Source: an uncultured Rikenellaceae bacterium
Lineage (GTDB): Bacteria; Bacteroidota; Bacteroidia; Bacteroidales; VadinHA17
Reading direction: 5' to 3'
NCBI GenBank assembly: GCA_964396955.1
Contig: CAYNGW010000001.1
Coordinates: forward strand, 1 to 45,085
Length of the DNA stretch: 45,085 bases
Part shown: positions 18,114-45,085 of the stretch, piece by piece
Numbering within the stretch: the stretch's first letter is position 1
Layout: each line of letters begins with the position of its first letter
The notes under the pieces: model-generated
The model's input: only the letters and a program-made list of their open reading frames with translations
What the model was told of the DNA's origin: nothing
Database searches by the model: none
Made by a program: the position numbers and the translations under genes

Positions 18114-18143
18114 ATCTTATAATTGGAAGTTACTTATTTTGTT

Positions 18144-18220
18144 AAGAGGCGACAGGCATCAGGCAACAGGCTACAGGGAATAAACACCTGACGCCTGAAG
18201 CCCGACGCCTGAAGCCTATC
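18144..18220. repeat. two inverted heptad arrays (nnCAGGC x5, a 7-nt spacer, GCCTGnn x5) forming a segmented hairpin
   Basis: aagaggc / gacaggc / atcaggc / aacaggc / tacaggg, spacer aataaac, then acctgac / gcctgaa / gcccgac / gcctgaa / gcctatc. Exactly 11 heptads. The right arm overlaps the stop and last codon of the ABC permease. Confidence 0.85.
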
Positions 18221-19574
18221 CTGAGTATCTCAGCCATTTCCACATTTCTTTGTACGATGTTTTCTTGCCATACATCAGTATCCCGGTTCTGTAGATCTTC
18301 GCCGCCATCCACACACATCCTGCAAATGTTATCACCATGAGGAACATTGAAATTGCTATCTGCCAGTAGGGTACGCCAAAAGGTATCCGAGCCATCATTA
18401 CAATAGGGGAGGTGAAAGGGATTATCGAGAACCATAAGGCAATGGAGCTTTCCGGATTCTGCATGGTTCCCATTGCCACCATGAGAGCGAAGATAATAGG
18501 TATGGCAACAGGCAGCATAAACTGCTGTGTTTCAGTTTCGTTATCTACTGCCGATCCTATCGCCGCAAATATTGAAGCATACAGAAGGTAACCGGTAACA
18601 AAATAGAATATGAATGATAAAATTATCAGGATCCAGTCCTGGTTCATCGCATTATCGAACAATTTTGTAAATTCCGCCATATCAGCGGACATCTCATCTG
18701 TCTGGGTTGCAGTGGCAATTTGCTGTTTTCCATCCATTATGTTCTGGGGCATGGTCTGAGTAATTTCAGTTACCCCCTTATCCTTCAGTACTGTTGCTTT
18801 CACCACCATAACAATTCCTGCAGTAAGAATTATCCAGATAAAGAACTGGGTAAGGCCTACCAGTGCAATGCCAATGATCTTACCCATCATAAGCTGAACA
18901 GGTTTGACCGAGGAGACAATAACCTCGACAACCCTGCTCGTTTTTTCTTCGATAACGCCTCTCATAACCATTGATCCGAACATGAAAACAAGCATGTACA
19001 TAAGGAACCCGCTGATATATGCCAGAGCCATTGCAATGCCTGTGCTGGTTTTTACAGACTGTCCCGAATCGTCGATTTTAATAGTCTGAATTGATACATT
19101 TGTATTGACGTCCTTAAGGATATTATCGAGATCCTTGATATTGTATGCAAGAAGCTTTTGCCTTTCAATTTCCTTTTCGAGCGCGCCGGAAATATGTTCA
19201 AGCAGGGTGAGAGGCGGCTGTTTTTTGGAAATGAGCTGTATCGCATTCGGAGTATTTATTATTTCCGGTGAGATCCACAGAATACCATAATATCCGGCCT
19301 CTTCGAAGTTCGTTTTAAGGTCTTCAACCGATGTGTTTTCCAGGTAGATATAATCAGCATCTTTTGTGTCGGGTATGACATTTTTGAACAGGTCAGAGCC
19401 ATCTTCAATCACAGCGATCTTTTTAAAATCCTTATCTCCATTCAGCATAAGAAGAGTCGGAACAACCATCAGCGAAGCCAGCAGCACGGGTGCAAGTATG
19501 GTCATTATGATAAATGATTTCTTCCTGACCCTGGTCATGTATTCCCTGCTTATTATTACAGATATTTTATTCAT
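18216..19574 (-). CDS. ABC-2 type transporter permease (NatB-like)
   Basis: 452 aa. One N-terminal TM, a ~150-aa extracytoplasmic domain, then 5-6 C-terminal TM helices. Encoded 18 nt downstream of the ABC ATPase. Confidence 0.8.
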   Translation of the reverse strand: MNKISVIISREYMTRVRKKSFIIMTILAPVLLASLMVVPTLLMLNGDKDFKKIAVIEDGSDLFKNVIPDTKDADYIYLENTSVEDLKTNFEEAGYYGILWISPEIINTPNAIQLISKKQPPLTLLEHISGALEKEIERQKLLAYNIKDLDNILKDVNTNVSIQTIKIDDSGQSVKTSTGIAMALAYISGFLMYMLVFMFGSMVMRGVIEEKTSRVVEVIVSSVKPVQLMMGKIIGIALVGLTQFFIWIILTAGIVMVVKATVLKDKGVTEITQTMPQNIMDGKQQIATATQTDEMSADMAEFTKLFDNAMNQDWILIILSFIFYFVTGYLLYASIFAAIGSAVDNETETQQFMLPVAIPIIFALMVAMGTMQNPESSIALWFSIIPFTSPIVMMARIPFGVPYWQIAISMFLMVITFAGCVWMAAKIYRTGILMYGKKTSYKEMWKWLRYSG

Positions 19575-22472: not shown

Positions 22473-22642
22473 AATTGACAAATTGACAGGAGAAAAGGCT
22501 TTACGGTGTTACGGCATTACGGCAGAAATTCAAATCTTTGGTTTTGCCTTAAAGCCCTGACACCCTAACGCCTTTACGCCCTAAAGCCCTAACGCCTTTA
22601 CGCCCTAAAGCCCTAACGCCTTTACGCCCTAAAGCCCTAAAG
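22473..22642. repeat. chain of octad arrays: AATTGACA x2, nnTTACGG x3, CCYTWAMG x12 (including three perfect 24-bp units)
   Basis: aattgaca x2 (22473-22488). ctttacgg / tgttacgg / cattacgg (22499-22522). 12 octads at 22547-22642, with ccctaacgcctttacgccctaaag repeated perfectly at 22563, 22587 and 22611. The last octad contains the murA stop codon. Confidence 0.9.
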
Positions 22643-25430: not shown

Positions 25431-25478
25431 GGTGCAACGGAGCAATGGTACAACGGTACAAAGGCGCAAAGGTTCTAT
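25431..25478. repeat. octad array GGnnCAAn x5-6
   Basis: ggtgcaac / ggagcaat / ggtacaac / ggtacaaa / ggcgcaaa / ggttctat. It ends 18 nt downstream of the CapA-like stop and lies upstream of the NicO-like gene. Confidence 0.8.
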
Positions 25479-35996: not shown

Positions 35997-36004
35997 TATC
36001 TTTG
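35997..36004 (+). promoter_or_regulatory. -7 promoter box TATCTTTG for dedA
   Basis: Exact TAnnTTTG match 25 nt upstream of the ATG at 36030. Confidence 0.45.
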
Positions 36005-36029
36005 ACGCCTTAAATGAATTTTTGAAATA

Positions 36030-36677
36030 ATGGAGCTATTTCAGACTCTCCTCGACTGGTACATGGCCAATCTGAACTATTTTACGATTGCGCTTCTCAT
36101 GCTTATCGAGAGTACTTTTCTGCCGTTGCCATCGGAGTTAGTTATGCCATTCGCGGCTTACAAAGCTGCACAGGGCGATTTGAATGTATTCATTGTAATT
36201 CTTTCAGGGACTATCGGAGCTCTTAGTGGTTCACTTATCAATTATACCCTTGCTTATTATCTCGGACGTCCGCTGGTATATAAGTTTGCAGAATCAAGAA
36301 TCGGGAGATTGTTTCTGCTATCAAAGGGAAAAGTAGTTCATGCAGAAGAATATTTCATCAGGAACGGGAAATCTTCAACATTTATCGGTCGATTGGTACC
36401 CGGCGTTCGCCATCTTATTTCAATTCCTGCAGGGCTGGCCAGGATGAAGCTCCGTGATTTCATGCTCTATACTTTCATCGGTGCAGGGATATGGAATATA
36501 ATCCTGGTAATTATAGGATACTTCATTTATGATTTAAAGGACAAGATATTTCCATATCTGGATGATATTCTTTATGTCCTGGGAGCCATCTTCGTTATCT
36601 ATCTTATATTCAAAGCCTGGAAGAACAGGAAGAAGAAAAATGATGATTCTTCCAAAGCGAATACTTCCCGGATATAG
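36030..36677 (+). CDS. dedA: DedA family membrane protein
   Basis: ESTFLPLPSELVMPFAAY and FIGRLVPGVRHLISIPAG motifs. 215 aa. Confidence 0.88.
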   Translation: MELFQTLLDWYMANLNYFTIALLMLIESTFLPLPSELVMPFAAYKAAQGDLNVFIVILSGTIGALSGSLINYTLAYYLGRPLVYKFAESRIGRLFLLSKGKVVHAEEYFIRNGKSSTFIGRLVPGVRHLISIPAGLARMKLRDFMLYTFIGAGIWNIILVIIGYFIYDLKDKIFPYLDDILYVLGAIFVIYLIFKAWKNRKKKNDDSSKANTSRI

Positions 36678-36679
36678 AT

Positions 36680-37067
36680 TTAATTCAGCCAGTTCTCGGC
36701 CATCTGTGGCCATGTTTTAGCGGCAAGATTTACAGGTCTTAAACCATATCCGTGTCCGCCGGATGGCATGACAGGCTGTCTGCGGCATCCATCGGAACAT
36801 AAGTCCTTTTGCTGAAAAGGGTACTGGTACTGGCGCTGAGACTACCTCCGGCGGAAAAGCCCATTATGCCAACTTTTTCAGGATCGATATTCCATTTAGG
36901 AGCTTTTTGTCTGACCACTCTCAAAGCCCGTTGTGCATCCTGAAGCGCGCCTTCTTTTTTTTCAGCTCTCCAGGTGCTTTCCCGGGCCAGAGATAGATGA
37001 GCTCTTTCTTTTGCGACATGCAGCTGATGGAAAGAAGCAGCAGAACGATAATAAGTGTTTGTTTCAT
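36680..37067 (-). pseudogene. decayed alpha/beta-hydrolase (carbohydrate esterase-like) remnant
   Basis: Minus-strand pieces in three frames. (1) A lipoprotein signal MKQTLIIVLLLLSISC followed by LIYLWPGKAPGE. (2) LQDAQRALRVVRQKAPKWNIDPEKVGIMGFSAGG (GxSxG nucleophile elbow). (3) The C-terminus GGHGYGLRPVNLAAKTWPQMAENWLN-stop. About 390 nt remain, against roughly 900 nt expected. Confidence 0.65.
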
Positions 37068-37090
37068 TGTATTCTGATTTGTTTCGATGT

Positions 37091-37113
37091 CTCACCCCCT
37101 CGTCTGGGGTGAG
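37091..37113. repeat. GC-rich hairpin CTCACCCC-N7-GGGGTGAG, same arm sequence as the hairpin at 20562-20590
   Basis: Perfect 8-bp arms with a 7-nt loop. It lies between the stop of the small lipoprotein gene (37124) and the esterase remnant. Confidence 0.55.
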
Positions 37114-37123
37114 GTTTATATAA

Positions 37124-37480
37124 TTATTCAACAATTTCTGCATTATCGAATTTCTGCGACTGGAAATTGACCCTTGAATGCTGCACTCTTCTCACGGTCC
37201 TACCACCGAAAAAGCCCCAGCCACCGCTTCCCAGAAGAAATCCGAGCGCGTACAAACCGCCATTATTATTCTGTGCATACATGGTTATTTCATCATTGAA
37301 TAGCATGCCGACAAAATCAAAAGGAGCAATGAACCCGTGCCACAGACCTCCGAAAAAACCATATGTATGCCCGGTCAGGCACTGATCAACTATTTCATTA
37401 TGAGCACATCCGGAAAGAAAAATGAGAATCATAAAAATAGAAAAGAACAGAAAATATTTCTGATTATAAAAGGTTTTCAT
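37124..37480 (-). CDS. small hypothetical lipoprotein, Gly-rich
   Basis: Signal peptide with lipobox (ILIFLSGCAH) and glycine-zipper-like stretches (GFFGGLWHGF, GFLLGSGGWGFFGG). No family recognised. Confidence 0.5.
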   Translation of the reverse strand: MKTFYNQKYFLFFSIFMILIFLSGCAHNEIVDQCLTGHTYGFFGGLWHGFIAPFDFVGMLFNDEITMYAQNNNGGLYALGFLLGSGGWGFFGGRTVRRVQHSRVNFQSQKFDNAEIVE

Positions 37481-37509
37481 TGTGTAAATATTAGTGATTA
37501 AATCCTGAG

Positions 37510-38046
37510 TTAATATGCAAACAAATCCAGATCGATGGCTTTACCGGAGAATTTCCTTTCATGGTCAAGGAGCCATTTCTTCCTTTTCAATCCCCCGCCA
37601 TAACCAACCAGACTTCCGTCGGATCCGATAACCCTGTGGCATGGGATGATTAAAGCTATCCTGTTTGTGCCGTTTGCTTGGGCAACAGCCCTTATCGCCC
37701 CGGGATTTTTTATTGATTTAGCCTGCTCCAGGTACGATTTTGTAGATCCATAAGGGATTTTCAGCAATTCATTCCAGGCTGCCTTCTGGAATTCAGTGCC
37801 CGGTGTCACAAGAGAAAGTGAAAACTCTTTTCTCTTGCCTTTGAAATACTCCTTCAGCTGCTTTTTAAGCATTCTGAGATGTTTGTTGCTGCCCTCTTTG
37901 ACCGGAGAATTAAAAAGTTTTGTGAGGTTATCATACACAGCTTCTGAGGCAGCTCTTTCCGGGAATTCAAGAAGGCATATGCCGTCCCGTGTAGCGGCGG
38001 CGATCATTTCTCCGAGAGGAGTTTCGATTTTAGTTGTTTTTATCAT
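37510..38046 (-). CDS. ogt: methylated-DNA--protein-cysteine methyltransferase
   Basis: Active-site IPCHRVIGSDGSLVGYGGG, preceded by the WNELLKIPYGSTKSY helix-turn-helix region. Confidence 0.92.
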   Translation of the reverse strand: MIKTTKIETPLGEMIAAATRDGICLLEFPERAASEAVYDNLTKLFNSPVKEGSNKHLRMLKKQLKEYFKGKRKEFSLSLVTPGTEFQKAAWNELLKIPYGSTKSYLEQAKSIKNPGAIRAVAQANGTNRIALIIPCHRVIGSDGSLVGYGGGLKRKKWLLDHERKFSGKAIDLDLFAY

Positions 38047-38065
38047 AAAAAATCTTGCTGTCGTT

Positions 38066-38089
38066 CAATCATGCAATCATGCGATCTAT
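38066..38089. repeat. octad array CAATCATG x2 plus one decayed unit
   Basis: caatcatg / caatcatg / cgatctat. The third unit contains the stop codon of the 38086-38508 gene. Confidence 0.6.
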
Positions 38090-38508
38090 TTTTCAAATCT
38101 CCTGGAAGTCGATTTTATATATCTAATATTCCTGAAACGCATGGCCGACCAGTTTTCATCAATTGAGACCATCCTTATCCCGTGGAAGCCCAGATCATTC
38201 AGGGCACTCCACCCGCAGTCACGTTCAGGCCCTGAGGAATACAATTTAGAGTTCTTTTTGGGATAACAGAACCATAATATGCCATCGGCTGTTAGATTAT
38301 GAAGAGCCATTGGTGCAAAGCGACTGACTTCAGAGACGGACCTGACAAATATGATTATGAACTCATAGGGACAACGCTGATCTATCTCATTATCAGTGAT
38401 TACGCCTATAAGCTCCCTGGAAATTGCCCGGAAAAAGAATTCTTCAGCATTGATAACCGCAATTCTTTTGTAATCCTTGTAATTAAGTTTCCTCAGGAGC
38501 TCTTCCAT
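38086..38508 (-). CDS. conserved hypothetical cytoplasmic protein
   Basis: 140 aa. The pattern WFCYPKKNSKLYSS...RDCGW...GFHGIRMVSIDENWSAMRFR recurs in a small uncharacterised family (possibly DUF3052-like, from memory only). Confidence 0.5.
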   Translation of the reverse strand: MEELLRKLNYKDYKRIAVINAEEFFFRAISRELIGVITDNEIDQRCPYEFIIIFVRSVSEVSRFAPMALHNLTADGILWFCYPKKNSKLYSSGPERDCGWSALNDLGFHGIRMVSIDENWSAMRFRNIRYIKSTSRRFEK

Positions 38509-38568
38509 CTCAGGTTTGAATTATTAGGCTAATTTAAAAAAAAATTGATAAACCGGATAAAAGGTTTT

Positions 38569-38576
38569 ACCTTTGT
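38569..38576 (+). promoter_or_regulatory. -7 promoter box TACCTTTG (with a TTG at 38546-38548) driving the riboswitch-led thiamine operon
   Basis: Exact TAnnTTTG match with a TTG 20 nt upstream. The riboswitch aptamer begins a few nt downstream. Confidence 0.55.
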
Positions 38577-38577
38577 A

Positions 38578-38668
38578 TTCTCGGAAAATGGGGTGCCTCA
38601 AAATTACGGGCTGAGATCAAACCCTTTGTACCTGATCCGGATAATGCCGGCGTAGGAAAAGAAAGTAT
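38578..38668 (+). promoter_or_regulatory. TPP (THI-box) riboswitch
   Basis: Conserved cores GGGGTGCC ... GCTGAGA ... ACCCTTTGTACCTGATCCGGATAATGCCGGCGTAGGAA are in the canonical order and spacing. The genes downstream are thiamine-uptake genes. Confidence 0.88.
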
Positions 38669-38729
38669 AGCCACGTGACCTTTTAAATAAGCAAACCTCA
38701 TTTTCCTGAGACATTAGTTTAATTTGAAA

Positions 38730-41111
38730 ATGATGAAAAGGTTTACGTTATTAATATTCGTATTCGTCGTCACTTTTTCTGATGTGTCAGCGTTTCAGAA
38801 CCAGGGCTCGGTTATCCGTGGCAGAGTCACTGACGTTTCAGGAAATCCTTTTGCAGGGGCGACGGTAGCAATTGAAAATACATCAATTGGAGTTCAAACT
38901 GATTATGATGGCAATTACTCAATTACCGGACTAAGAGACGGAAGTTATACCATCAGGTTTTCCTATATAGGTTATGAGACCATGGTAAAAGAGGTTACGG
39001 TAAAAGAGGATATTGTTGTAAATATAATACTTTCAGAAAAGACTTATATGACAGAAGAAGTTCTGGTAAGCGCCACAAGAGCCGGGGAGCATACGCCATT
39101 GACCTACACCACAGTAAACAAAGAAGACATAAAAAAGAATAATATTGTTCAGGATATTCCATTTATAATGAATTACACTCCTTCCATGGTTGTTTCTTCG
39201 GATGCAGGGACAGGCGTGGGATATACAAGTTTAAACATACGTGGTAGCGATACAAGGAGGATCAATGTGACTATAGATGGTATACCTGTAAATGATGCTG
39301 AGTCGCATGGAGTCTGGTGGGTAGATCTGCCGGATATTGCATCATCTGCCGATAATATTCAGATACAGCGCGGTGTTGGCACTTCAACCAACGGAGCCGG
39401 TGCATTCGGCGCTACAATAAATATACAAACATCAGCATTGAACCGTGAACCTTATGCTGAAATCAACTCGTCATTCGGGTCCTTCAACACATTAAAAAAT
39501 ACTGCAAACTTCGGAACCGGATTAATAGTTAATAAATTTGCTGTTGATGCCCGTTTATCCAAAATATCGTCTGATGGATATATCGACCGGGCTTTCAGCG
39601 ATTTAAAGTCGTTTTATCTATCCGGGACATATTACAGTAATAAAAGCATTTTGAAACTTCTTGTTTTTTCAGGCTCAGAACGTACTTACCAGGCATGGCT
39701 GGGTGTTCCTAAAGATTCTCTTATAAAAAACAGGACTTATAATCCATACAGCTATGAAAATGAAACAGATAATTACTGGCAGGATAATTACCAGCTACAT
39801 TATTCACAAAGGATAAATGATTTCTTACATATTGATGCAGCCCTTCATTATACAAGAGGAAAAGGATATTATGAAAATTTTAAACCGGATTCAAAACTCA
39901 TTTCGTATGGTCTTGATGATAAAATAATTAATAATGATACTGTTACCAGAACAGATATTATAGTCCAGAAATGGCTCGATAATGATTTTTATGGGTTTAC
40001 TTACTCTATTAATTATGAAAAGAACAGGTTCAATCTGTTAATTGGTGGAAGCTGGAATAATTATGACGGGGACCATTTTGGAGATATAATCTGGGCCAGG
40101 ATCGTAACTTTTAACGGCGAGAAGTATCGCTGGTATAACGGGACAGGAGATAAAAAGGATTTGAATTCTTACATGAAAATTAATTATTCACTGGCTGCAG
40201 GTTTAAATCTTTATACAGATTTACAATTGCGTCATATTAATTATGTAATAAAGGGAATTGACGACAATTTAAAGGATATTACTCAGGATCATTTGTATAA
40301 CTTCTTTAATCCTAAGGCCGGGATATTGTACAGTCTCAGTAAACAACAAAAAGTCTATGCTTCGTTTGGGATATCCCAGAGAGAACCTGACAGATCGAAT
40401 TTTACTGATGCCGATCCGGGTAAAACACCAAAACCGGAAAAACTGTATGACCTTGAAACAGGTTATGAATTAAGCTCATCAAAAGTCATGTTAAAAGCGA
40501 ATCTCTACTATATGCATTATAAAGACCAGTTGATCTCCACCGGCGAAATTAACAATGTCGGAGATCCTATATTGACTAATGTATCAAGAAGTTACAGAAT
40601 GGGGATTGAACTTGAATCCAGTTTAAAGATAATACAGAATCTGAACTGGTATGGTAATGTAACTTTCAGCAGAAATATTATTCCGCTTTTTGTTGATTAT
40701 ACAGATAACTGGGATACCTGGAGCCAGGAAAGTGATAATCTTAAAAATAAAACGATATCTTTTTCGCCATCAGTAATTGCATGCTCCATATTTGATTATG
40801 AACCTTTCAATGAGGTCCATCTGAATCTGACTACCAAATATGTCGGGAAACAGTATATTGATAATACCCAGGATGCTGAAAGGATGCTAAATGGATATCT
40901 GGTACAGAACCTTTCATTATCCTATACATTAACGACCAAAACAGTTAAAAAGCTTGTTTTTCAGTTAATGGTGAATAATCTCTTTAATCACAAATATGAA
41001 TCATATGCATGGGTTTATAAATACATAGAGGGTGGTACTCAAAAGATAATGGATGGATATTTCCCACAGGCCGGTATAAATATTATGATAAAAGCAGGTT
41101 TGACTTTCTGA
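38730..41111 (+). CDS. TonB-dependent outer-membrane receptor with N-terminal carboxypeptidase-regulatory-like domain
   Basis: Signal peptide. CarbopepD_reg-like IRGRVTDVSGNPFAGATVAIENTSIGVQTDYDGNYSI. Plug domain (RGSDTRRINVTIDGIPVND). Beta-barrel ending in the aromatic terminus ...AGLTF. The start is set at ATG 38730. Confidence 0.9.
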   Translation: MMKRFTLLIFVFVVTFSDVSAFQNQGSVIRGRVTDVSGNPFAGATVAIENTSIGVQTDYDGNYSITGLRDGSYTIRFSYIGYETMVKEVTVKEDIVVNIILSEKTYMTEEVLVSATRAGEHTPLTYTTVNKEDIKKNNIVQDIPFIMNYTPSMVVSSDAGTGVGYTSLNIRGSDTRRINVTIDGIPVNDAESHGVWWVDLPDIASSADNIQIQRGVGTSTNGAGAFGATINIQTSALNREPYAEINSSFGSFNTLKNTANFGTGLIVNKFAVDARLSKISSDGYIDRAFSDLKSFYLSGTYYSNKSILKLLVFSGSERTYQAWLGVPKDSLIKNRTYNPYSYENETDNYWQDNYQLHYSQRINDFLHIDAALHYTRGKGYYENFKPDSKLISYGLDDKIINNDTVTRTDIIVQKWLDNDFYGFTYSINYEKNRFNLLIGGSWNNYDGDHFGDIIWARIVTFNGEKYRWYNGTGDKKDLNSYMKINYSLAAGLNLYTDLQLRHINYVIKGIDDNLKDITQDHLYNFFNPKAGILYSLSKQQKVYASFGISQREPDRSNFTDADPGKTPKPEKLYDLETGYELSSSKVMLKANLYYMHYKDQLISTGEINNVGDPILTNVSRSYRMGIELESSLKIIQNLNWYGNVTFSRNIIPLFVDYTDNWDTWSQESDNLKNKTISFSPSVIACSIFDYEPFNEVHLNLTTKYVGKQYIDNTQDAERMLNGYLVQNLSLSYTLTTKTVKKLVFQLMVNNLFNHKYESYAWVYKYIEGGTQKIMDGYFPQAGINIMIKAGLTF

Positions 41112-41128
41112 TTCTAAGCATCCGGACT

Positions 41129-41887
41129 ATGTGGTTTTCTAACTGGCTATCAAATAACTATATCGAAGTCTTCGGGGCTGTTACCGGTATTATTTATGTC
41201 ATACTGGAAATAAGGCAGAACATATGGTTATGGCCGGTAGGAATAGCGACTTCGGCAGTTTATATATGGGTGTTCTTTACGAGTAAATTTTATGCTGACA
41301 TGAGTCTGCAGGGGTACTACCTGGTTATAAGTGTACTGGGGTGGTACTGGTGGATAAAGGGCGGAGGGCGGATGGCGGAGGGCGAAGGGCAAGAGGCGCA
41401 GAGCTCAGGGCGCAGGGCTCAGGGCGCAGGGCAGAAGGCAAAGGGCGAAGAGCAGGGGGCGCAGAACGCAGAGCTAATGGCGCAGGGCGAAGAACAACTA
41501 GATGCTGATACAGAGCTCCCCTCCTCGGAGGAGTTGGGGGTGGGTATTGAAAGACCTGGAAAACTTAAAGTAACAAGAATAAGTCTAAAAACTACGCTTA
41601 TTCTCTCGGCTGTATTTTTGGCTCTTCTTGCAGTTATGTATCTGGTGCTTGACAGACTCACGGATTCACCGGTGCCTTTCTGGGATTCGTTTATTACAAC
41701 TCTGTCAATTATAGCCACATGGATGCTTGCCAGGAAGATTTACGAACACTGGTATCTGTGGATCGTTGTTAATGCTGCTTCAGTACTGTTGTTTTATACG
41801 AGAGGGCTTTACCCGACTGTCGTGCTTTACATTATTTATTGTGCCATGTCGTTTGTGGGCCTTAATGAATGGAAACGTACACTCTGA
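41129..41887 (+). CDS. pnuC: PnuC-family transporter (thiamine-type PnuT by context) carrying an in-frame ~60-aa low-complexity insertion
   Basis: Seven TM helices in a 3+1+3 layout. WYWW motif after TM3. Located in a TPP-riboswitch operon next to TPK. The TM3-TM4 loop contains GRMAEGEGQEAQSSGRRAQGAGQKAKGEEQGAQNAELMAQGEEQLDADTELPSSEELGVG. Confidence 0.85.
   Translation: MWFSNWLSNNYIEVFGAVTGIIYVILEIRQNIWLWPVGIATSAVYIWVFFTSKFYADMSLQGYYLVISVLGWYWWIKGGGRMAEGEGQEAQSSGRRAQGAGQKAKGEEQGAQNAELMAQGEEQLDADTELPSSEELGVGIERPGKLKVTRISLKTTLILSAVFLALLAVMYLVLDRLTDSPVPFWDSFITTLSIIATWMLARKIYEHWYLWIVVNAASVLLFYTRGLYPTVVLYIIYCAMSFVGLNEWKRTL
41355..41494 (+). repeat. heptad array x20 (consensus CGCAGGG) inside the PnuC-family CDS
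   Basis: taaaggg cggaggg cggatgg cggaggg cgaaggg caagagg cgcagag ctcaggg cgcaggg ctcaggg cgcaggg cagaagg caaaggg cgaagag caggggg cgcagaa cgcagag ctaatgg cgcaggg cgaagaa. The register is unbroken for 140 nt. It is followed by the palindrome CCCCTCCTCGGAGGAGTTGGGGG (41518-41540). Confidence 0.9.
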
Positions 41888-42011
41888 CAGTTCATGTAAT
41901 GTAATATCTCTGCCGACAGCAAAAGCGATTTTCTTAAGTTCAGACATCAGTCGGTCAAACTCATCAATAGATTTAAAGAAATAATGTAACTTTATTAATC
42001 ACATACTTATT

Positions 42012-42632
42012 ATGTCGTTAAAAACTGTGATTCTGGCAAACGGACAATTTCCGGAGAATGAGATCCCGAGGAATTTTCTTATGAATGCTGAAGTGATTGT
42101 ATGCTGCGATGGAGCAGCTGTGACACTTGTTCAGTATGGACTTGAGCCTTCAGCAATTGTGGGGGATTGTGATTCGATTGATGATGAGATTATTAACAGA
42201 TATGCAGACCGGATATACAAAGACGATGAACAGGAAACTAACGATCTGACCAAAGCAGTAAAATGGTGCTCAGAAAAGGGGTATAAAGATATTGTTATTC
42301 TCGGGGCAACAGGCAAACGGGATGATCATACCCTGGGAAACATATCGCTGCTTGCTGAATATGCACAATTCGTGAACATAAAAATGGTTACTGATACCGG
42401 GATCTTTTATCCTGCTCTTGAAAGCAGCAGATTTGAAACTTCACCTGGTCAGCAGATTTCAATTTTCTCTATAAATCCTGATACCGAAATAATCTCATCG
42501 GGTTTGAAGTACCCACTTAATAAGAGAAAATTAAAAAACTGGTGGGAAGCAACACTGAATGAGGCTGTAGGTAATTCATTTGAATTGAAATTTGACAGGG
42601 GAAAAGTAATTGTATTTATGGAATTTAAGTAA
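42012..42632 (+). CDS. thiamine diphosphokinase (TPK)
   Basis: IVGDCDSIDD, DQETNDLTKAV and ILGATGKRDDHTLGNI motifs. C-terminal thiamine-binding beta domain. 206 aa. Confidence 0.88.
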   Translation: MSLKTVILANGQFPENEIPRNFLMNAEVIVCCDGAAVTLVQYGLEPSAIVGDCDSIDDEIINRYADRIYKDDEQETNDLTKAVKWCSEKGYKDIVILGATGKRDDHTLGNISLLAEYAQFVNIKMVTDTGIFYPALESSRFETSPGQQISIFSINPDTEIISSGLKYPLNKRKLKNWWEATLNEAVGNSFELKFDRGKVIVFMEFK

Positions 42633-42635
42633 AAA

Positions 42636-42733
42636 GTCCTGCAGGTCTTGCCAGTCCTGCCAGTCTTGCATGTCATTTAACCCGAGAGGACCTGCACGAC
42701 CTGCATGACCTGCATGACTTGCATGACAATCTC
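42636..42733. repeat. two nonamer arrays (GTCYTGCMn x4-5 and GACYTGCAY x4-5) filling the spacer between the convergent TPK and LuxR-type genes
   Basis: gtcctgcag / gtcttgcca / gtcctgcca / gtcttgcat / gtcatttaa, then cccgagag, then gacctgcac / gacctgcat / gacctgcat / gacttgcat / gacaatctc. It starts 4 nt after the TPK stop and runs into the LuxR-type stop codon. Confidence 0.85.
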
Positions 42734-43664
42734 ACTGCTTGGTTTCTTCTTTTACCAGGGTTATCAGCTGCACCCTGCTCCTGACATTAGTTTTAATATA
42801 TATCCTGTGAGTATGATCCTTCACAGTCTGCAGGCTGATAAATAGCTTGTCTGCTATCTCTTTATTGCTGAGCCCATTGCAGATCTCCCGCACGATATCC
42901 GTTTCACGTGGCGATACATCAAATTTTCTGCAGAATTCCTCAAATGACAGTTCCTTCCCCGGTTCCGTGGTAAATGCAGACATCAGCGTACCGTAAGTGA
43001 AATAGACCGGGAGAAATGCATTGCCGGTAAAGAATGTCAGGATAAAGAGCAGGGCTATATAAACAGATATTGTATAGAAAAAAAGAGGAATGCATTGTAA
43101 AAGCATTACAGTTAAGATAGCTGTAGCAATTATCCTCCTGTCATACGCGTGAATGAATGACTTTCCCTTCTTTGGAAATATTATCAGGATTGAAGCAAAA
43201 GAGGAATAGATAAAATTCATGCCGATAAAATAGTAACGTATCAGGTCTTCAGGTTCAATTGATTTTTCTTCGGCGACATAATAGCCTAAAGTGATTATTA
43301 TCGCGAAATTGACAAGAAGGAACCAAAGAAAGTGCCAGTTATTATACTTTCTTCCTGAAATTTCTCCTGAGAACCTGATGAGCATAAGCCAGGCAAAAAC
43401 CAGAAAGGGAAATCCAAGAAGAAGGGAGATATTGGTAAAGCGTTCAATCAGGTTTGAATCTATATAGGGAGAGAGAAAAGCTTTAATGATCACCTGACCC
43501 CAGATTCCATAAAATCCGAATGTAAAGATGAAAACCAGGAAATACAGCAGAGATGAGAAAATTTCACTCCTGTACCTGTTCCTCAGCCGTGATGCCAGGA
43601 CCACGCTTCCAGCGGCCAGAGCTACCGATAAGAAAAAAACCAGCCAAACCAGATATTTGAGCAT
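42732..43664 (-). CDS. membrane-embedded LuxR/GerE-type transcription regulator (about 7 TM helices plus a C-terminal HTH)
   Basis: The N-terminal ~230 aa are almost entirely hydrophobic helices. The C-terminus is SPRETDIVREICNGLSNKEIADKLFISLQTVKDHTHRIYIKTNVRSRVQL, a LuxR-type HTH. Confidence 0.75.
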   Translation of the reverse strand: MLKYLVWLVFFLSVALAAGSVVLASRLRNRYRSEIFSSLLYFLVFIFTFGFYGIWGQVIIKAFLSPYIDSNLIERFTNISLLLGFPFLVFAWLMLIRFSGEISGRKYNNWHFLWFLLVNFAIIITLGYYVAEEKSIEPEDLIRYYFIGMNFIYSSFASILIIFPKKGKSFIHAYDRRIIATAILTVMLLQCIPLFFYTISVYIALLFILTFFTGNAFLPVYFTYGTLMSAFTTEPGKELSFEEFCRKFDVSPRETDIVREICNGLSNKEIADKLFISLQTVKDHTHRIYIKTNVRSRVQLITLVKEETKQ

Positions 43665-43687
43665 AATAATATAAAGGTATTCAGATT

Positions 43688-43722
43688 ATTTCGGATTTCG
43701 GATTGTCGATTGCGGATTTTTT
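43688..43722. repeat. heptad array ATTnnGG x5 in the promoter region of the LuxR-type gene
   Basis: atttcgg / atttcgg / attgtcg / attgcgg / atttttt, 24-58 nt upstream of the ATG at 43664 on the minus strand. Confidence 0.7.
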
Positions 43723-43745
43723 ACCTGTTGTCAATCGGCAATTAC

Positions 43746-43774
43746 TACTAAAGTATTGCCATCATACTAAAGTA
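43746..43774. promoter_or_regulatory. direct repeat TACTAAAGTA x2 (19-nt spacing) in the divergent promoter region; candidate operator
   Basis: Identical 10-mers at 43746-43755 and 43765-43774, between the LuxR-type gene and the divergent membrane-protein gene. Confidence 0.3.
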
Positions 43775-43826
43775 GGAAATAAAAAAAACACTACAATAGT
43801 ATGAAGCCCATGGAAAAAACAGGCTT

Positions 43827-43834
43827 TACATTTG
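43827..43834 (+). promoter_or_regulatory. -7 promoter box TACATTTG
   Basis: Exact TAnnTTTG match 42 nt upstream of the ATG at 43877. Confidence 0.45.
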
Positions 43835-43876
43835 TCTCGTATTGTGAACGCAAGTATTAATTAATAATTCTGAAAT

Positions 43877-44623
43877 ATGGAAACAAGTAATGAGTACAAA
43901 TTGAAACCAACATTTGGCAACAGCTTTGGTACAGGATGGAGAGTAATGACAGATAACTTTATCAGACTGCTTCTGATAGTTATTATCCTGGCTATAGTGA
44001 CGGGTCCCTCGACAATAGTGAATTTTAATTTCGATAAAAATGATCTTCACAGGGTGCCATGGGAATGGACAAGAAATATAGACGGTATTATAAACTGGGC
44101 TTCAATAGGCATGATGGCAGCGTTCTTCGGACTTATTGCCCTGCTGTTCACTTTCTTTGTTGTACCTGTATTTGAATACGGGGCTGATATGACCTTTGTT
44201 CAGGCTGTAAGGAAAATCAAACCTGATTTTGAACTGCTTATAAGAGGCTTCTGGCAGAATTACCTTCATATTGTCCTGGCGAATCTGCTGGTGTCGGCAC
44301 TCGTAATACTGGGATGCTTTGCCCTGATCATACCTGGAATAATTATCGGCTGCCGGCTGGTTTTTGTATCATATATAGTGATGGACAAAAGGCTCGATCC
44401 CATTGAAGCTGTTGAATTAAGCTGGAAACTTACAAGGGGGCATGGATGGAGGATCTTCGCAATGGGATTTGTATCATGTTTCATCCTGCTATTCGGGCTA
44501 ATATTTTTTATAGTAGGTATATTCCCTGCAATAATGTGGGTTTCAAGTTCCTTTGCAACTCTTTATCAGTCAGTACTTAACGAAAAGGAAAAACCTGCAG
44601 AGCAACCGGTACTGGCACAATAA
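43877..44623 (+). CDS. hypothetical integral membrane protein
   Basis: 248 aa with 5-6 TM helices. The general look resembles DUF975/YciC-like membrane proteins (AVELSWKLTRGHGWRIF), but the family is not securely recognised. Confidence 0.5.
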   Translation: METSNEYKLKPTFGNSFGTGWRVMTDNFIRLLLIVIILAIVTGPSTIVNFNFDKNDLHRVPWEWTRNIDGIINWASIGMMAAFFGLIALLFTFFVVPVFEYGADMTFVQAVRKIKPDFELLIRGFWQNYLHIVLANLLVSALVILGCFALIIPGIIIGCRLVFVSYIVMDKRLDPIEAVELSWKLTRGHGWRIFAMGFVSCFILLFGLIFFIVGIFPAIMWVSSSFATLYQSVLNEKEKPAEQPVLAQ

Positions 44624-44656
44624 CGGCATTCAGTTTTCTTTCTTAATATGTTTTCT

Positions 44657-44690
44657 CCTGCCGCGGGCTTTGCCCCGGCAGGTTTTTTTT
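44657..44690 (+). terminator. rho-independent terminator
   Basis: CCTGCCGCGGG / CCCCGGCAGG stem (10 bp with one bulge), a 5-nt loop, then T8. It lies 34 nt after the stop at 44623. Confidence 0.8.
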
Positions 44691-44791
44691 ATTTAAATTG
44701 TATAACTTTATAGCCTGGTTGTTCAAAAAGATACATCCGACTTCCCTTTGATTACATACTGAAAAAATAAAGCCATCACAGATTCTGTATT

Positions 44792-44807
44792 TGGCACGCT
44801 GTTTGCA
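44792..44807 (+). promoter_or_regulatory. sigma-54 (RpoN) promoter, perfect -24/-12 consensus
   Basis: TGGCACGCTGTTTGCA matches TGGCACG-N4-TTGCW with no mismatch. It is intergenic, after a terminator, and 52 nt upstream of the ATG at 44860. Confidence 0.7.
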
Positions 44808-44859
44808 AAAAACTGAAAATTCAATACCTTTATAGTTTATTTTATAAATACTTTAAAAC

Positions 44860-45085
44860 ATGAAGACGAGGACAATATTATTAACGATTGTACTGATTTT
44901 TGCTTTACCTGCACTTTCCGATGCTCAGGTAGGTAATCTGCTGAAGAACAAGGTGGGCAAAGCAATTAATGCCGGAGTTAAAGTACTTGATAAAGAGGCG
45001 GACAAGAAAATTGATTCAGCTGCCACCAGGGAAGCTCAGAAGGCATATGATAAAGCAGAGAAGGACAGAGCTGAACAAGAGGCAG
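44860..45085 (+). CDS. secreted Lys/Ala/Glu-rich protein, 3' end cut by the window edge
   Basis: ATG at 44860, signal peptide MKTRTILLTIVLIFALPALSDAQ, then a charged helical-looking sequence. The frame is open to the end of the window. It is absent from the ORF track because no stop is reached. Confidence 0.55.
   Translation, partial: MKTRTILLTIVLIFALPALSDAQVGNLLKNKVGKAINAGVKVLDKEADKKIDSAATREAQKAYDKAEKDRAEQEA

What the first reader, a model, noticed from the sequence alone, without database searches (positions are those of the whole stretch)
41355..41545. An intergenic-style heptad array plus palindrome inserted in frame into a cytoplasmic loop of the PnuC-family thiamine transporter
Twenty consecutive heptads (consensus CGCAGGG, 140 nt, register never broken) are followed by a GC palindrome (CCCCTCCTCGGAGGAGTTGGGGG). 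Both lie between TM3 (ending WYWWIKGG) and TM4 of an otherwise complete 7-TM PnuC-type protein.

Seven is not a multiple of three, so the DNA repeat appears at the protein level as 21-nt / 7-aa repeats: AEGEGQE AQSSGRR AQGAGQK AKGEEQG AQNAELM AQGEEQL. The array is almost free of T, so it has few opportunities for stop codons in the forward frames. That may be why the insertion is tolerated.

The flanking parts alone amount to roughly 190 aa with all seven helices. About 60 aa therefore look like a recent expansion of the same element class that is otherwise found at gene ends. The result is either a functional linker born from a repeat element or a transporter on its way to decay.
Basis: partly seen in the sequence, partly recalled or inferred. 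Interest (0 to 1): 0.72.

Follow-up and report, generated by a model that had tools for sequence, protein, structure and literature searches.

The report
Heptad DNA repeat encoding transporter loop
A 7-base DNA repeat plus a small GC-rich palindrome is translated in frame as a floppy cytoplasmic loop of a working thiamine transporter; the same repeat sits at the same spot in dozens of related uncultured Bacteroidales, where it grows and shrinks in steps of three units and occasionally breaks the gene.

Summary
Window 41362-41501 holds 20 in-register heptads (C at position 1 in 20/20; lag-7 identity 0.65 vs 0.34 in shuffles, z=8). A GC palindrome with a TTGGGGGTGGGT tail follows at 41518-41545. 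Both lie inside an intact 252-aa PnuC-family ORF in a TPP-riboswitch / TonB-receptor / pnuT / thiamine-pyrophosphokinase operon.

They encode residues ~80-152, an unstructured linker between TM3 and TM4 that Pfam and PDB 4QTN lack.

The "recent, lineage-private insertion or decaying gene" reading is not supported.
- About 70 species-level Bacteroidales MAGs have a variable loop (14-122 aa) at this codon, and 41 of 70 carry the same AGGGCNC heptad (peptide RAQG[ATS]G[HRL]).
- 75 of 78 complete genes are intact, and the TM core has dN/dS ~0.04-0.2.

The pattern is set at the DNA level. Close relatives differ by 21- or 42-nt indels. Two independent alleles with a unit count that is not a multiple of three are frameshifted.

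Related genomes carry 7- and 8-nt arrays and the same palindrome family in intergenic DNA, so "intergenic-style" is fair.

Best reading: a long-lived, slippage-driven coding microsatellite tolerated as a disordered linker. Phase variation or G-quadruplex function remain unproven minority readings.

The parts
38584..38668 (+). TPP riboswitch heading the operon
   Evidence: Rfam RF00059, 57.2 bits against a gathering score of 54.3
38724..41111 (+). TonB-dependent outer-membrane receptor gene, upstream of pnuT
   Evidence: Pfam Plug, TonB_dep_Rec_b-barrel and CarboxypepD_reg
41129..41887 (+). pnuT ORF, 252 aa (PnuC/NMN_transporter family), intact
   Evidence: ORF list; PF04973 at E=2.6e-54 in two stretches; PDB 4QTN aligns to residues 11-91 and 153-250
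41339..41353 (+). GWYWW codons at the cytoplasmic end of TM3. This is the conserved 5' anchor, and the repeat starts right after it in all orthologues.
   Evidence: Invariant columns G71 W72 Y73 W74 W75; motif positions
41366..41584 (+). Codons for residues 80-152, the unstructured TM3-TM4 linker (about 55 aa longer than in PnuC 4QTN)
   Evidence: AF2 gives coil with pLDDT <50 over 79-103 and 119-149; gap in the 4QTN alignment
41362..41501 (+). Degenerate heptanucleotide repeat, 20 units, consensus CGCAGGG (= AGGGCGC), G-rich on the sense strand
41408..41431 (+). Most regular core (CTCAGGGCGCAGGG x2). It is the only canonical G3N1-7 x4 quadruplex motif on either strand of the 45-kb window.
41518..41545 (+). 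Partial copy of a dispersed GC-rich palindromic element: C-arm, G-arm, then a TTGGGGGTGGGT tail. It is translated as PSSEELGVG.
   Evidence: Hairpin of -18.4 kcal/mol; family members in related genomes; conserved as LPSLEGLGVG in relatives
41585..41887 (+). TM4-TM7 coding part
42012..42632 (+). Thiamine pyrophosphokinase gene (metabolic trapping partner)
   Evidence: Pfam TPK_catalytic and Thi_PPkinase_C

Best explanation
The segment is a long-lived coding microsatellite. A heptanucleotide simple-sequence repeat (unit AGGGCNC) and a fragment of a dispersed GC-rich palindromic element are read through in frame. Together they form a roughly 70-residue, hydrophilic, disordered cytoplasmic linker between TM3 and TM4 of a functional, riboswitch-controlled PnuT thiamine transporter.

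The tract is inherited at the same codon across a large clade of uncultured Bacteroidales. It is kept recognisable by continuing replication slippage in a lineage whose genomes generate 7- and 8-nt arrays everywhere.

Seven is coprime to three, so all three forward frames of a perfect array give the same RAQGAGR-type peptide and none has a stop. Only changes of 3n units keep TM4-7 in frame, and selection on the transporter filters the alleles accordingly.

**Shown:**
- the repeat and its position in the protein
- its orthology across the clade
- the DNA-level nature of the pattern
- indels in 21/42-nt steps
- out-of-frame alleles at unit counts that are not multiples of three
- purifying selection on the TM core

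**Inferred:**
- slippage as the mechanism
- disorder and cytoplasmic location of the loop
- absence of a specific function for the loop peptide
For: 1. **The repeat is real and sits in an intact PnuC-family ORF** within a TPP-riboswitch / TonB-receptor / pnuT / TPK operon.
2. **It is an insertion relative to the family.** The Pfam profile is split at position 71/72. 4QTN has about 15 residues where this protein has about 70. AF2 shows coil over 80-152.
3. **It is orthologous, not private.** The GWYWW-to-TDSPVP distance ranges from 141 to 465 nt in 72 loci. Loops run from 14 to 122 aa, and 41 of 70 carry at least 3 AGGGCNC units, always on the sense strand and starting right after WYWW-x-K/R-G.
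4. **The pattern is set at the DNA level.**
   - Heptad position 6 is variable (1.55-1.64 bits) whatever its codon phase.
   - Positions 2-4 are conserved even at third codon positions.
   - Lag 21 is no stronger than lag 7.
5. **Slippage in frame-preserving steps.**
   - Window against its closest DNA relative L082: one 42-nt and one 21-nt indel, otherwise 86% identity, against 80-90% in the flanks.
   - Proteins at least 93% identical outside the loop differ mostly by 7 or 14 aa.
   - In one sub-lineage the whole loop is exactly 6, 15 or 30 heptads.
6. **Out-of-frame alleles exist.**
   - L080 has 14 units and is frameshifted.
   - L081/L088 has 5.7 GGGCACA units against 4.7 in L002, with identical flanks, giving a 98-aa truncated ORF.
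7. **The gene is functional.** 75 of 78 complete loci are intact. Flank dN/dS is 0.04-0.2, and 0.13 for window-L082.
8. **Lineage habit.** TRF on 867 kb shows that periods 7 and 8 and their multiples dominate. Arrays lie mostly in the ~11% non-coding DNA, and coding arrays of at least 3 copies are essentially confined to this loop.
Against: - Persistence of a recognisable, often perfect tract at one codon across lineages with saturated synonymous divergence is longer than a neutral microsatellite life-cycle would lead one to expect.
- In several close pairs the loop's synonymous divergence is lower than that of the flanks. This could mean selection on the nucleotide sequence, but repeat units misalign easily, so the measure is soft.
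- 33 of 74 orthologous loops hold a canonical G4 motif, against 13 motifs in 786 kb of flanks.
- The structure model has low confidence (pLDDT 59.6). Disorder and topology are therefore inferred from secondary structure, the 4QTN alignment and the positive-inside rule, not demonstrated.
- No data on expression or transport are available.
Confidence: 0.7

Rival explanations
1. Contingency locus. The heptad tract is a selected phase-variation switch. Gain or loss of one or two units shifts the frame after TM3 and turns the thiamine transporter off, or splits it. A further slip turns it back on.
For: - The unit length is not a multiple of 3 and the tract lies inside the ORF.
- Many species have 4-5 perfect units at the 5' end of the loop (L002, L009, L012, L020, L037).
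- There are two independent out-of-frame alleles that differ from in-frame relatives by whole units.
- Split or truncated ORFs are called on long contigs (P0181+P0183 on one 1.29-Mb contig, P0182).
Against: - The window's own tract is degenerate (70% matches; the longest perfect repeat is 2 x 14 nt), so its slippage rate should be low.
- About 96% of species representatives are in frame.
- The L081 and L088 alleles come from the same assembly, beside a scaffold gap.
- L073 and some of the split cases may be long-read indel errors.
- Rare broken alleles are what any mutational hotspot would produce without being selected as a switch.
Confidence: 0.12
2. Nucleic-acid function. The G-rich sense strand (G3N4 repeats) forms a G-quadruplex or another structure in the mRNA or the non-template DNA. 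This pauses ribosomes or RNA polymerase after TM1-3, tuning co-translational insertion or operon polarity. Selection therefore acts on the DNA motif rather than the peptide.
For: - The only canonical G4 motif in the 45-kb window is at 41408-41431.
- 33 of 74 orthologous loops carry one, against 13 motifs in 786 kb of flanks.
- Heptad conservation is independent of codon phase, and loop dS is low.
- The typical run of 4-5 perfect units echoes the four-unit preference reported for G4-forming GGGNATC heptamers in Xanthomonas and Nostoc (PMC4692102).
Against: - More than half of the loops lack a G4 motif.
- Some lineages use GG-only units (AGGCGAC in L001 and L009), octads or no repeat at all.
- With quadruplex energies enabled, the predicted minimum-energy fold does not use the three-layer G4, and the tract folds no better than shuffles (z -1.6).
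- Slippage-driven homogenisation explains the same statistics.
Confidence: 0.1
3. One reading: a recent insertion or expansion of an intergenic repeat element into this genome's pnuT, leaving a gene that may be decaying.
For: - Intergenic composites with the same heptad unit, the same palindrome type and further arrays exist (L086 5000-5190, L098 2600-3000, L080 8336-8398).
- A search with the repeat peptide returns 195 short, domain-less ORFs, which are spurious calls over intergenic arrays.
Against: - The tract is orthologous across the clade and aligns heptad by heptad with the nearest relative, at flank-like divergence.
- The ORF is intact and the TM core has omega ~0.13.
- An ancient origin from intergenic-type DNA, or birth in situ from K-G-A-G codons, cannot be told apart.
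Confidence: 0.05
4. Assembly or sequencing artefact in a repetitive GC-rich stretch.
For: Repeats are prone to misassembly, and some related long-read MAGs show frameshifts (L073).
Against: The same architecture appears in more than 100 independent protein clusters and about 80 genomes from many projects and sequencing platforms. The window's tract is 140 nt of imperfect units, in frame, and alignable to L082.
Confidence: 0.02

Closest known systems
Long simple-sequence repeats of 5-11 nt, with heptanucleotides the commonest class (Mrazek et al. 2007, as summarised in PMC4679880 and PMC4692102), and cyanobacterial STRR heptamers
   Same: Both are tandem 7-nt units found at many loci per genome, mostly intergenic. 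Copy number changes by slippage, and inverted pairs form hairpins.
   Different: - The host here is uncultured Bacteroidales, and the unit sequences differ.
- This copy lies inside a conserved ORF and has persisted there across a clade. Repeats with units that are not multiples of 3 are reported to be depleted in coding DNA.
G-rich GGGNATC heptamer repeats of Xanthomonas and Nostoc (Rehm et al. 2015, PMC4692102)
   Same: Both are G3-containing heptamers that satisfy the quadruplex motif. Runs of about four units are common, and the G-rich strand is the sense strand near genes.
   Different: [quoted passage not shown] This one is translated. Quadruplex formation has not been tested here.
SSR contingency loci (phase-variable genes of Haemophilus and Neisseria; Lin & Kussell 2012, PMC3315296)
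   Same: A repeat with a unit that is not a multiple of 3 lies inside an ORF, so unit gain or loss shifts the frame. Both in-frame and out-of-frame alleles are seen among relatives.
   Different: - The tract is largely degenerate.
- It sits in mid-gene, in a housekeeping vitamin transporter of free-living anaerobes.
- In-frame 3n-unit variation dominates.
- Switching has not been shown.
REP/BIME-like dispersed palindromic elements
   Same: Both are short GC-rich imperfect palindromes, dispersed and usually found after gene ends in related genomes.
   Different: Here a partial copy is translated inside a protein loop. No second copy occurs in the 45-kb window, and no named family was matched (Rfam negative).
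PnuC/PnuT vitamin transporters (PDB 4QTN; PnuT of Shewanella woodyi, PMC5749112)
   Same: - Pfam family.
- 7-TM plan, with TM1-3 and TM5-7 bundles joined by TM4.
- Operon with a kinase for metabolic trapping.
- A Trp-rich end of TM3, near the proposed cytoplasmic gate.
   Different: It carries about 55 extra repeat-encoded residues between TM3 and TM4.

Membership tests
PnuC/PnuT transporter family (Pfam PF04973) | Match to the NMN_transporter profile above the curated threshold | tested here: met
   184.2 bits against a cutoff of 27.3, E=2.6e-54, in two stretches
PnuC/PnuT transporter family (Pfam PF04973) | Seven TM helices arranged as TM1-3 / TM4 / TM5-7 | tested here: met
   AF2 secondary structure gives 3 + 4 helices (low-confidence model). 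4QTN aligns on both sides of the loop.
PnuC/PnuT transporter family (Pfam PF04973) | Thiamine-specific context (TPP riboswitch, thiamine kinase) | tested here: met
   RF00059 at 38584-38668; TPK gene at 42012-42632. The same gene order is seen in L082.
PnuC/PnuT transporter family (Pfam PF04973) | Thiamine transport activity | not testable with these tools
   Needs an uptake or complementation assay.
Heptanucleotide simple-sequence repeat (LSSR class) | Head-to-tail copies with a 7-nt period beyond chance | tested here: met
   TRF reports 18.9 copies; lag-7 z=8.2
Heptanucleotide simple-sequence repeat (LSSR class) | Unit-number polymorphism among close relatives | tested here: met
   21- and 42-nt indels; steps of 7 and 14 aa; 6, 14, 15 and 30 units
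Heptanucleotide simple-sequence repeat (LSSR class) | Many such arrays per genome, mainly intergenic | tested here: met
   Five further arrays in the window. Periods 7 and 8 dominate in 867 kb of related loci.
Cyanobacterial STRR1-3 | Unit sequences CCCCAGT, TTGGTCA or CAACAGT (recalled from the literature, not re-read here) | tested here: not met
   The unit is AGGGCNC. It resembles STRR only in kind.
SSR contingency (phase-variable) locus | Long uninterrupted perfect tract | tested here: not met
   In the window the longest perfect repeat is 2 x 14 nt, with 70% matches overall. The feature is met in some relatives, which have 4-6 perfect units.
SSR contingency (phase-variable) locus | Unit change shifts the reading frame of the gene | tested here: met
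   7 nt per unit. L080 (14 units) and L081 (+1 unit) are frameshifted.
SSR contingency (phase-variable) locus | ON and OFF alleles coexisting and reversible within populations | tested here: inconclusive
   There are two out-of-frame alleles among about 80 genomes. The metagenome scan gave only 13 loci and no independent replicate.
G-quadruplex-forming repeat | At least four G3 tracts with loops of 1-7 nt | tested here: met
   41408-41431 is the only such motif in the window. 33 of 74 orthologous loops carry one.
G-quadruplex-forming repeat | Quadruplex actually forms and affects expression | not testable with these tools
   The ViennaRNA minimum-energy fold with gquad enabled does not select the three-layer G4. 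Biophysical measurement is needed.
Dispersed palindromic (REP-like) element | GC-rich imperfect palindrome able to form a hairpin | tested here: met
   -18.4 kcal/mol, but z is only -1.5
Dispersed palindromic (REP-like) element | Multiple dispersed copies in the same genome | tested here: inconclusive
   No second copy occurs in the 45-kb window. Many intergenic copies of the same design occur in related genomes.

The most novel reading that the evidence does not exclude
The heptad tract is not merely tolerated but maintained by selection as a device embedded in a coding loop. It could be a contingency switch that turns off, or splits, a vitamin B1 transporter in free-living anaerobic Bacteroidales. 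Alternatively it could be a sense-strand G-quadruplex or pause site placed exactly between the first three-helix bundle and TM4. The evidence does not exclude this: the tract persists at one codon across a clade, its conservation is at the DNA level, G4 motifs are enriched, and whole-unit out-of-frame alleles exist.
Probability: 0.15. Interest if true: 0.75.

Novelty: new variant of a known kind. Interest (0 to 1): 0.5.

Why it matters
Repeats whose unit is not a multiple of three are expected to be purged from coding DNA. Here one has persisted at the same codon of an essential-vitamin transporter across a broad, uncultured Bacteroidales clade. It is visibly filtered to three-unit steps.

This gives three things:
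- a clean natural example of how non-coding-type repeats become protein linkers
- a marker of how permissive the TM3-TM4 junction of the PnuC fold is, with loops of 14 to 122 residues and even apparently split genes
- a pointer to an undescribed abundance of 7-, 8- and 9-nt arrays and hairpin-forming array pairs in these genomes

If the tract turned out to be a selected switch or a G-quadruplex element, it would link simple-sequence repeats to vitamin acquisition in environmental bacteria.

Tried and rejected
- **Partner arm for the pnuT tract.** I looked for a C-rich partner array that would make the tract one arm of a hairpin or of a long-range pairing. There is none within 36000-45085, and the tract alone folds no better than shuffles. 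C-rich arrays about 3 kb upstream in other species first looked like operon-leader partners. They turned out to lie downstream of an unrelated minus-strand gene.
- **Rfam.** Nothing was found in or near the loop at gathering or at E<=1, apart from a chance snoRNA hit.
- **Exact palindrome search.** The 27-nt palindrome has no exact match in the 82 loci held at the time. Only the design is shared, not the sequence.
- **G4 in the predicted fold.** It was not selected, and the energy is not unusual.
- **AF2.** The model is too weak (pLDDT 59.6) to justify a fold search. Only its secondary structure was used.
- **Metagenome scan for heptad-number alleles.** It returned 13 loci. The out-of-frame allele it found (L088) is the same assembly as L081, so it is not an independent replicate.
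- **dN/dS in the loop.** The numbers are reported but treated as soft, because repeat units misalign.
- **In-situ birth from native K-G-A-G codons.** The shortest loops (L062, L053) do not use heptad-like codons, so this stays undecided.
Full report
**The observation**

Window 41362-41501 consists of 20 heptads in unbroken register. Position 1 is C in 20 of 20 units, and the consensus is CGCAGGG (equivalently AGGGCGC). TRF reports 41358-41489 as period 7, 18.9 copies, 70% matches.

Lag-7 identity is 0.647, against 0.340 +/- 0.038 in 5000 shuffles (z=8.2). Lags 14, 21 and 28 are no higher, so the true unit is 7 nt. This is the strongest lag-7 signal anywhere in the 45-kb window.

The stretch has 6 T in 141 nt and 65-69% GC, against 42% for the window. 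Three of the six frames are stop-free. The palindrome CCCCTCCTCGGAGGAG, followed by TTGGGGGTGGGT, lies at 41518-41545.

**Where it sits**

- ORF 41129-41887(+) is uninterrupted, 252 aa. It matches Pfam PF04973 (NMN_transporter) at E=2.6e-54, with the match split into two stretches at profile position 71/72.
- The solved PnuC structure 4QTN aligns to residues 11-91 and 153-250. It has about 15 residues where this protein has about 70.
- An AlphaFold model built on 41 homologues is of low confidence (pLDDT 59.6). Its secondary structure gives helices 11-28, 32-51 and 57-79, then coil 80-152 with pLDDT below 50, then helices 153-177, 184-203, 205-224 and 228-251.
- The gene lies between a TonB-dependent receptor gene and a thiamine pyrophosphokinase gene, behind a TPP riboswitch at 38584-38668. 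This is the arrangement described for Bacteroides thiamine uptake (papers listed).
- The cytoplasmic side for the loop is inferred from three things: the K/R distribution; the 7-TM N-out plan; and the position of the Trp-rich end of TM3, near the proposed cytoplasmic gate of PnuT (PMC5749112).

**It is neither private nor recent**

- A protein search returned 3407 relatives. The best 120 are 51-100% identical (51-80% once the window's own protein is set aside) and 205-281 aa long. All the length variation falls in this loop.
- A scan of one genome per species gave 80 loci from Bacteroidales MAGs.
- The distance from the GWYWW codons to the TDSPVP codons ranges from 141 to 465 nt. Loops run from 14 to 122 aa.
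- In 41 of 70 uninterrupted genes the loop contains at least three AGGGCNC heptads. They start directly after W-Y-W-W-x-K/R-G and are always G-rich on the sense strand.

Translation explains the peptides exactly. (AGGGCNC)3 reads R-A-Q-G-[A/T/S]-G-[H/R/L], with the one variable heptad position falling in codon position 3, 1 and 2 in turn.

Other loops, or other parts of the same loops, are built from:
- 8-nt units: GACGAAGA gives GLRDEETK, and GARGGGGA gives EWEKGREGEGE
- a 6-nt unit: GAGAGT gives SESE
- copies of a GC palindrome: LPSLEGLGVG or SPFEGGQGDV

**The pattern is a DNA pattern**

Across 343 heptads, position 6 has 1.55-1.64 bits of entropy whichever codon position it occupies. Positions 2-4 stay conserved even when they are third codon positions. 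The heptads were selected by similarity to the consensus, so only the comparison between codon phases is informative.

The TM core evolves under strong purifying selection, with dN/dS 0.04-0.2 and 0.13 for the window against L082. Loops show dN several-fold higher, and in several close pairs dS lower, than the flanks. That is what slippage-driven homogenisation would give. The loop figures are soft, because repeat units can misalign.

**How it changes**

- **Window against its closest DNA relative (L082).** The tract aligns heptad by heptad at 86% identity, against 80% and 90% in the flanks. There are just two gaps, of 42 and 21 nt.
- **Proteins at least 93% identical outside the loop.** The loop lengths differ most often by 7 or 14 aa. 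Some pairs have entirely different loops.
- **One sub-lineage.** The whole stretch between the WYWW codons and the next conserved anchor is an exact multiple of 7 nt. The three intact genes have 6, 15 and 30 units. L080 has 14 units and is frameshifted.
- **A second out-of-frame allele.** L081 (also found as L088) has one more GGGCACA unit than L002, with identical flanks. This gives a 98-aa truncated ORF. It lies next to a scaffold gap, and both records come from one assembly.
- **Overall.** 75 of 78 complete species-level genes are intact. L003 has a nonsense codon in an octad array, and L073 has several frameshifts that may be long-read errors. Split ORFs (TM1-3 and TM4-7) are also called on long contigs.

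**Is it "intergenic-style"?**

Yes in kind.
- TRF over 867 kb of these loci finds periods 7 and 8 and their multiples far above all others. Arrays are concentrated in the ~11% of DNA that is non-coding. Coding arrays of at least three copies are essentially confined to the pnuT loop.
- The AGGGCNC unit itself is mostly specific to this loop (22 of 24 runs of three or more units in the 867 kb held). It also occurs intergenically in L080 and L086, and spectacularly in L098, where 18 units sit in a 400-nt composite of at least five different arrays.
- A search with the repeat peptide returned 195 short, domain-less ORFs. These are spurious gene calls over such arrays.
- The palindrome belongs to a dispersed design: C-arm, loop, G-arm, then TTGGGG(G/T)G(A/G)GG. 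It is common after gene ends in related genomes. L086 shows heptads, this palindrome and an octad array together in an intergenic spacer.

It differs in architecture. The window's gene-end arrays are inverted pairs that fold into long hairpins with periodic internal loops (z -7.8, -4.5 and -5.8). The pnuT tract is single-armed and unstructured (z -1.6).

**Interpretation**

The best-supported reading is a long-lived coding microsatellite plus a palindrome fragment, tolerated as a disordered cytoplasmic linker at a structurally permissive junction of the PnuC fold. The lineage's strong tendency to 7- and 8-nt slippage keeps it alive. Selection on the transporter filters it to three-unit steps.

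The purine-rich orientation gives Gly/Ala/Arg/Gln/Glu-rich peptide and no stops. The opposite strand would give a Pro/Cys/Leu-rich sequence.

Two minority readings remain open.
- **A selected ON/OFF switch.** Whole-unit out-of-frame alleles exist. However, the window's tract is degenerate, and about 96% of genes are in frame.
- **A sense-strand G-quadruplex or pause element.** The only canonical G4 motif of the window is at 41408-41431, and 33 of 74 loops have one against 13 in 786 kb of flanks. However, many loops lack it, and the predicted folds do not use it.

**Relation to known things**

Heptanucleotide repeats are the commonest long SSR class in bacteria. Examples have been described in cyanobacteria, Xanthomonas and Beggiatoaceae, and a few in Bacteroidetes. 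Units that are not multiples of three are reported to be depleted in ORFs (PMC4679880 and PMC4692102; PMC3315296, listed).

In the four literature searches I ran I found no description of either:
- a heptad SSR conserved in frame within a transporter loop across a clade, or
- the abundance of 7-9-nt arrays in these Bacteroidales.

I therefore rate it a new variant of a known kind, of moderate interest.

Noticed in passing
window 18140-18222, 22495-22640, 42630-42732: Gene-end hairpins whose two arms are inverted tandem arrays of 7-, 8- and 9-nt units. The arms pair mainly at a short GC clamp in each unit, leaving periodic internal loops (RNA fold z -7.8, -4.5, -5.8). The orthologous spot after the LuxR-type gene has 9-nt units here, 8-nt units in L078 993-1030 and 7-nt units in L023 3814-3847. 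The position is conserved, but the unit and the period are not.
   Followed up: partly
window 43688-43719: [quoted passage not shown] Arrays with the same unit sit at the orthologous place in L073 8273-8303 (there with an inverted partner) and in L078 1985-2016. It may be a regulatory or promoter-proximal repeat.
   Followed up: partly
window 38066-38086; L069 2538-2794; L036 2494-2568; L042 2822-2878: The spacer downstream of the 140-aa minus-strand ORF 38086-38508 holds only CAATCATG x2.6 in the window. The same spacer in other species holds very different arrays, up to CGTCTCTC x32 in L069. In L036 it holds the reverse complement of the pnuT heptad.
   Followed up: partly
L001 5942-6000, L011 1629-1690, L036 5953-5991: (AACCAGT)n arrays abut the pnuT start codon in three species but not in the window. 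This recalls the TAACTGA repeats immediately upstream of start codons described in Beggiatoaceae, cyanobacteria and a few Bacteroidetes (PMC4679880).
   Followed up: no
L098 2600-3000 (also L099): A roughly 400-nt intergenic composite of at least five different short-period arrays includes (GGGCRCA)x18, 9-nt GTCTTGCAA units and CGCTAAA/CCCTAAA heptads. The protein called over it is on record in at least 24 contigs.
   Followed up: partly
L012 432, 942, 1452, 1962: Four copies of the palindromic element CCCCTCCCTCTTGGGGGAGGGGTTGGGGAGAGG lie at exactly 510-nt spacing, implying a larger tandem repeat that carries it.
   Followed up: no
L003 ~6290; P0181+P0183 on one 1.29-Mb contig: pnuT is apparently split within the loop into a TM1-3 ORF and a TM4-7 ORF. 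L003 has an in-frame stop followed by a Met. Whether the two halves still assemble is unknown.
   Followed up: partly
window 25431-25461: A single-armed 8-nt array (GGTACAAC-type, 3.9 copies) lies between two minus-strand genes. It has no hairpin (z -0.2).
   Followed up: partly
L043 (labelled Christensenellales): A contig binned as Christensenellales carries a typical Bacteroidales pnuT with a 15-heptad loop closely related to L004 and L080. This is probably a binning error.
   Followed up: no
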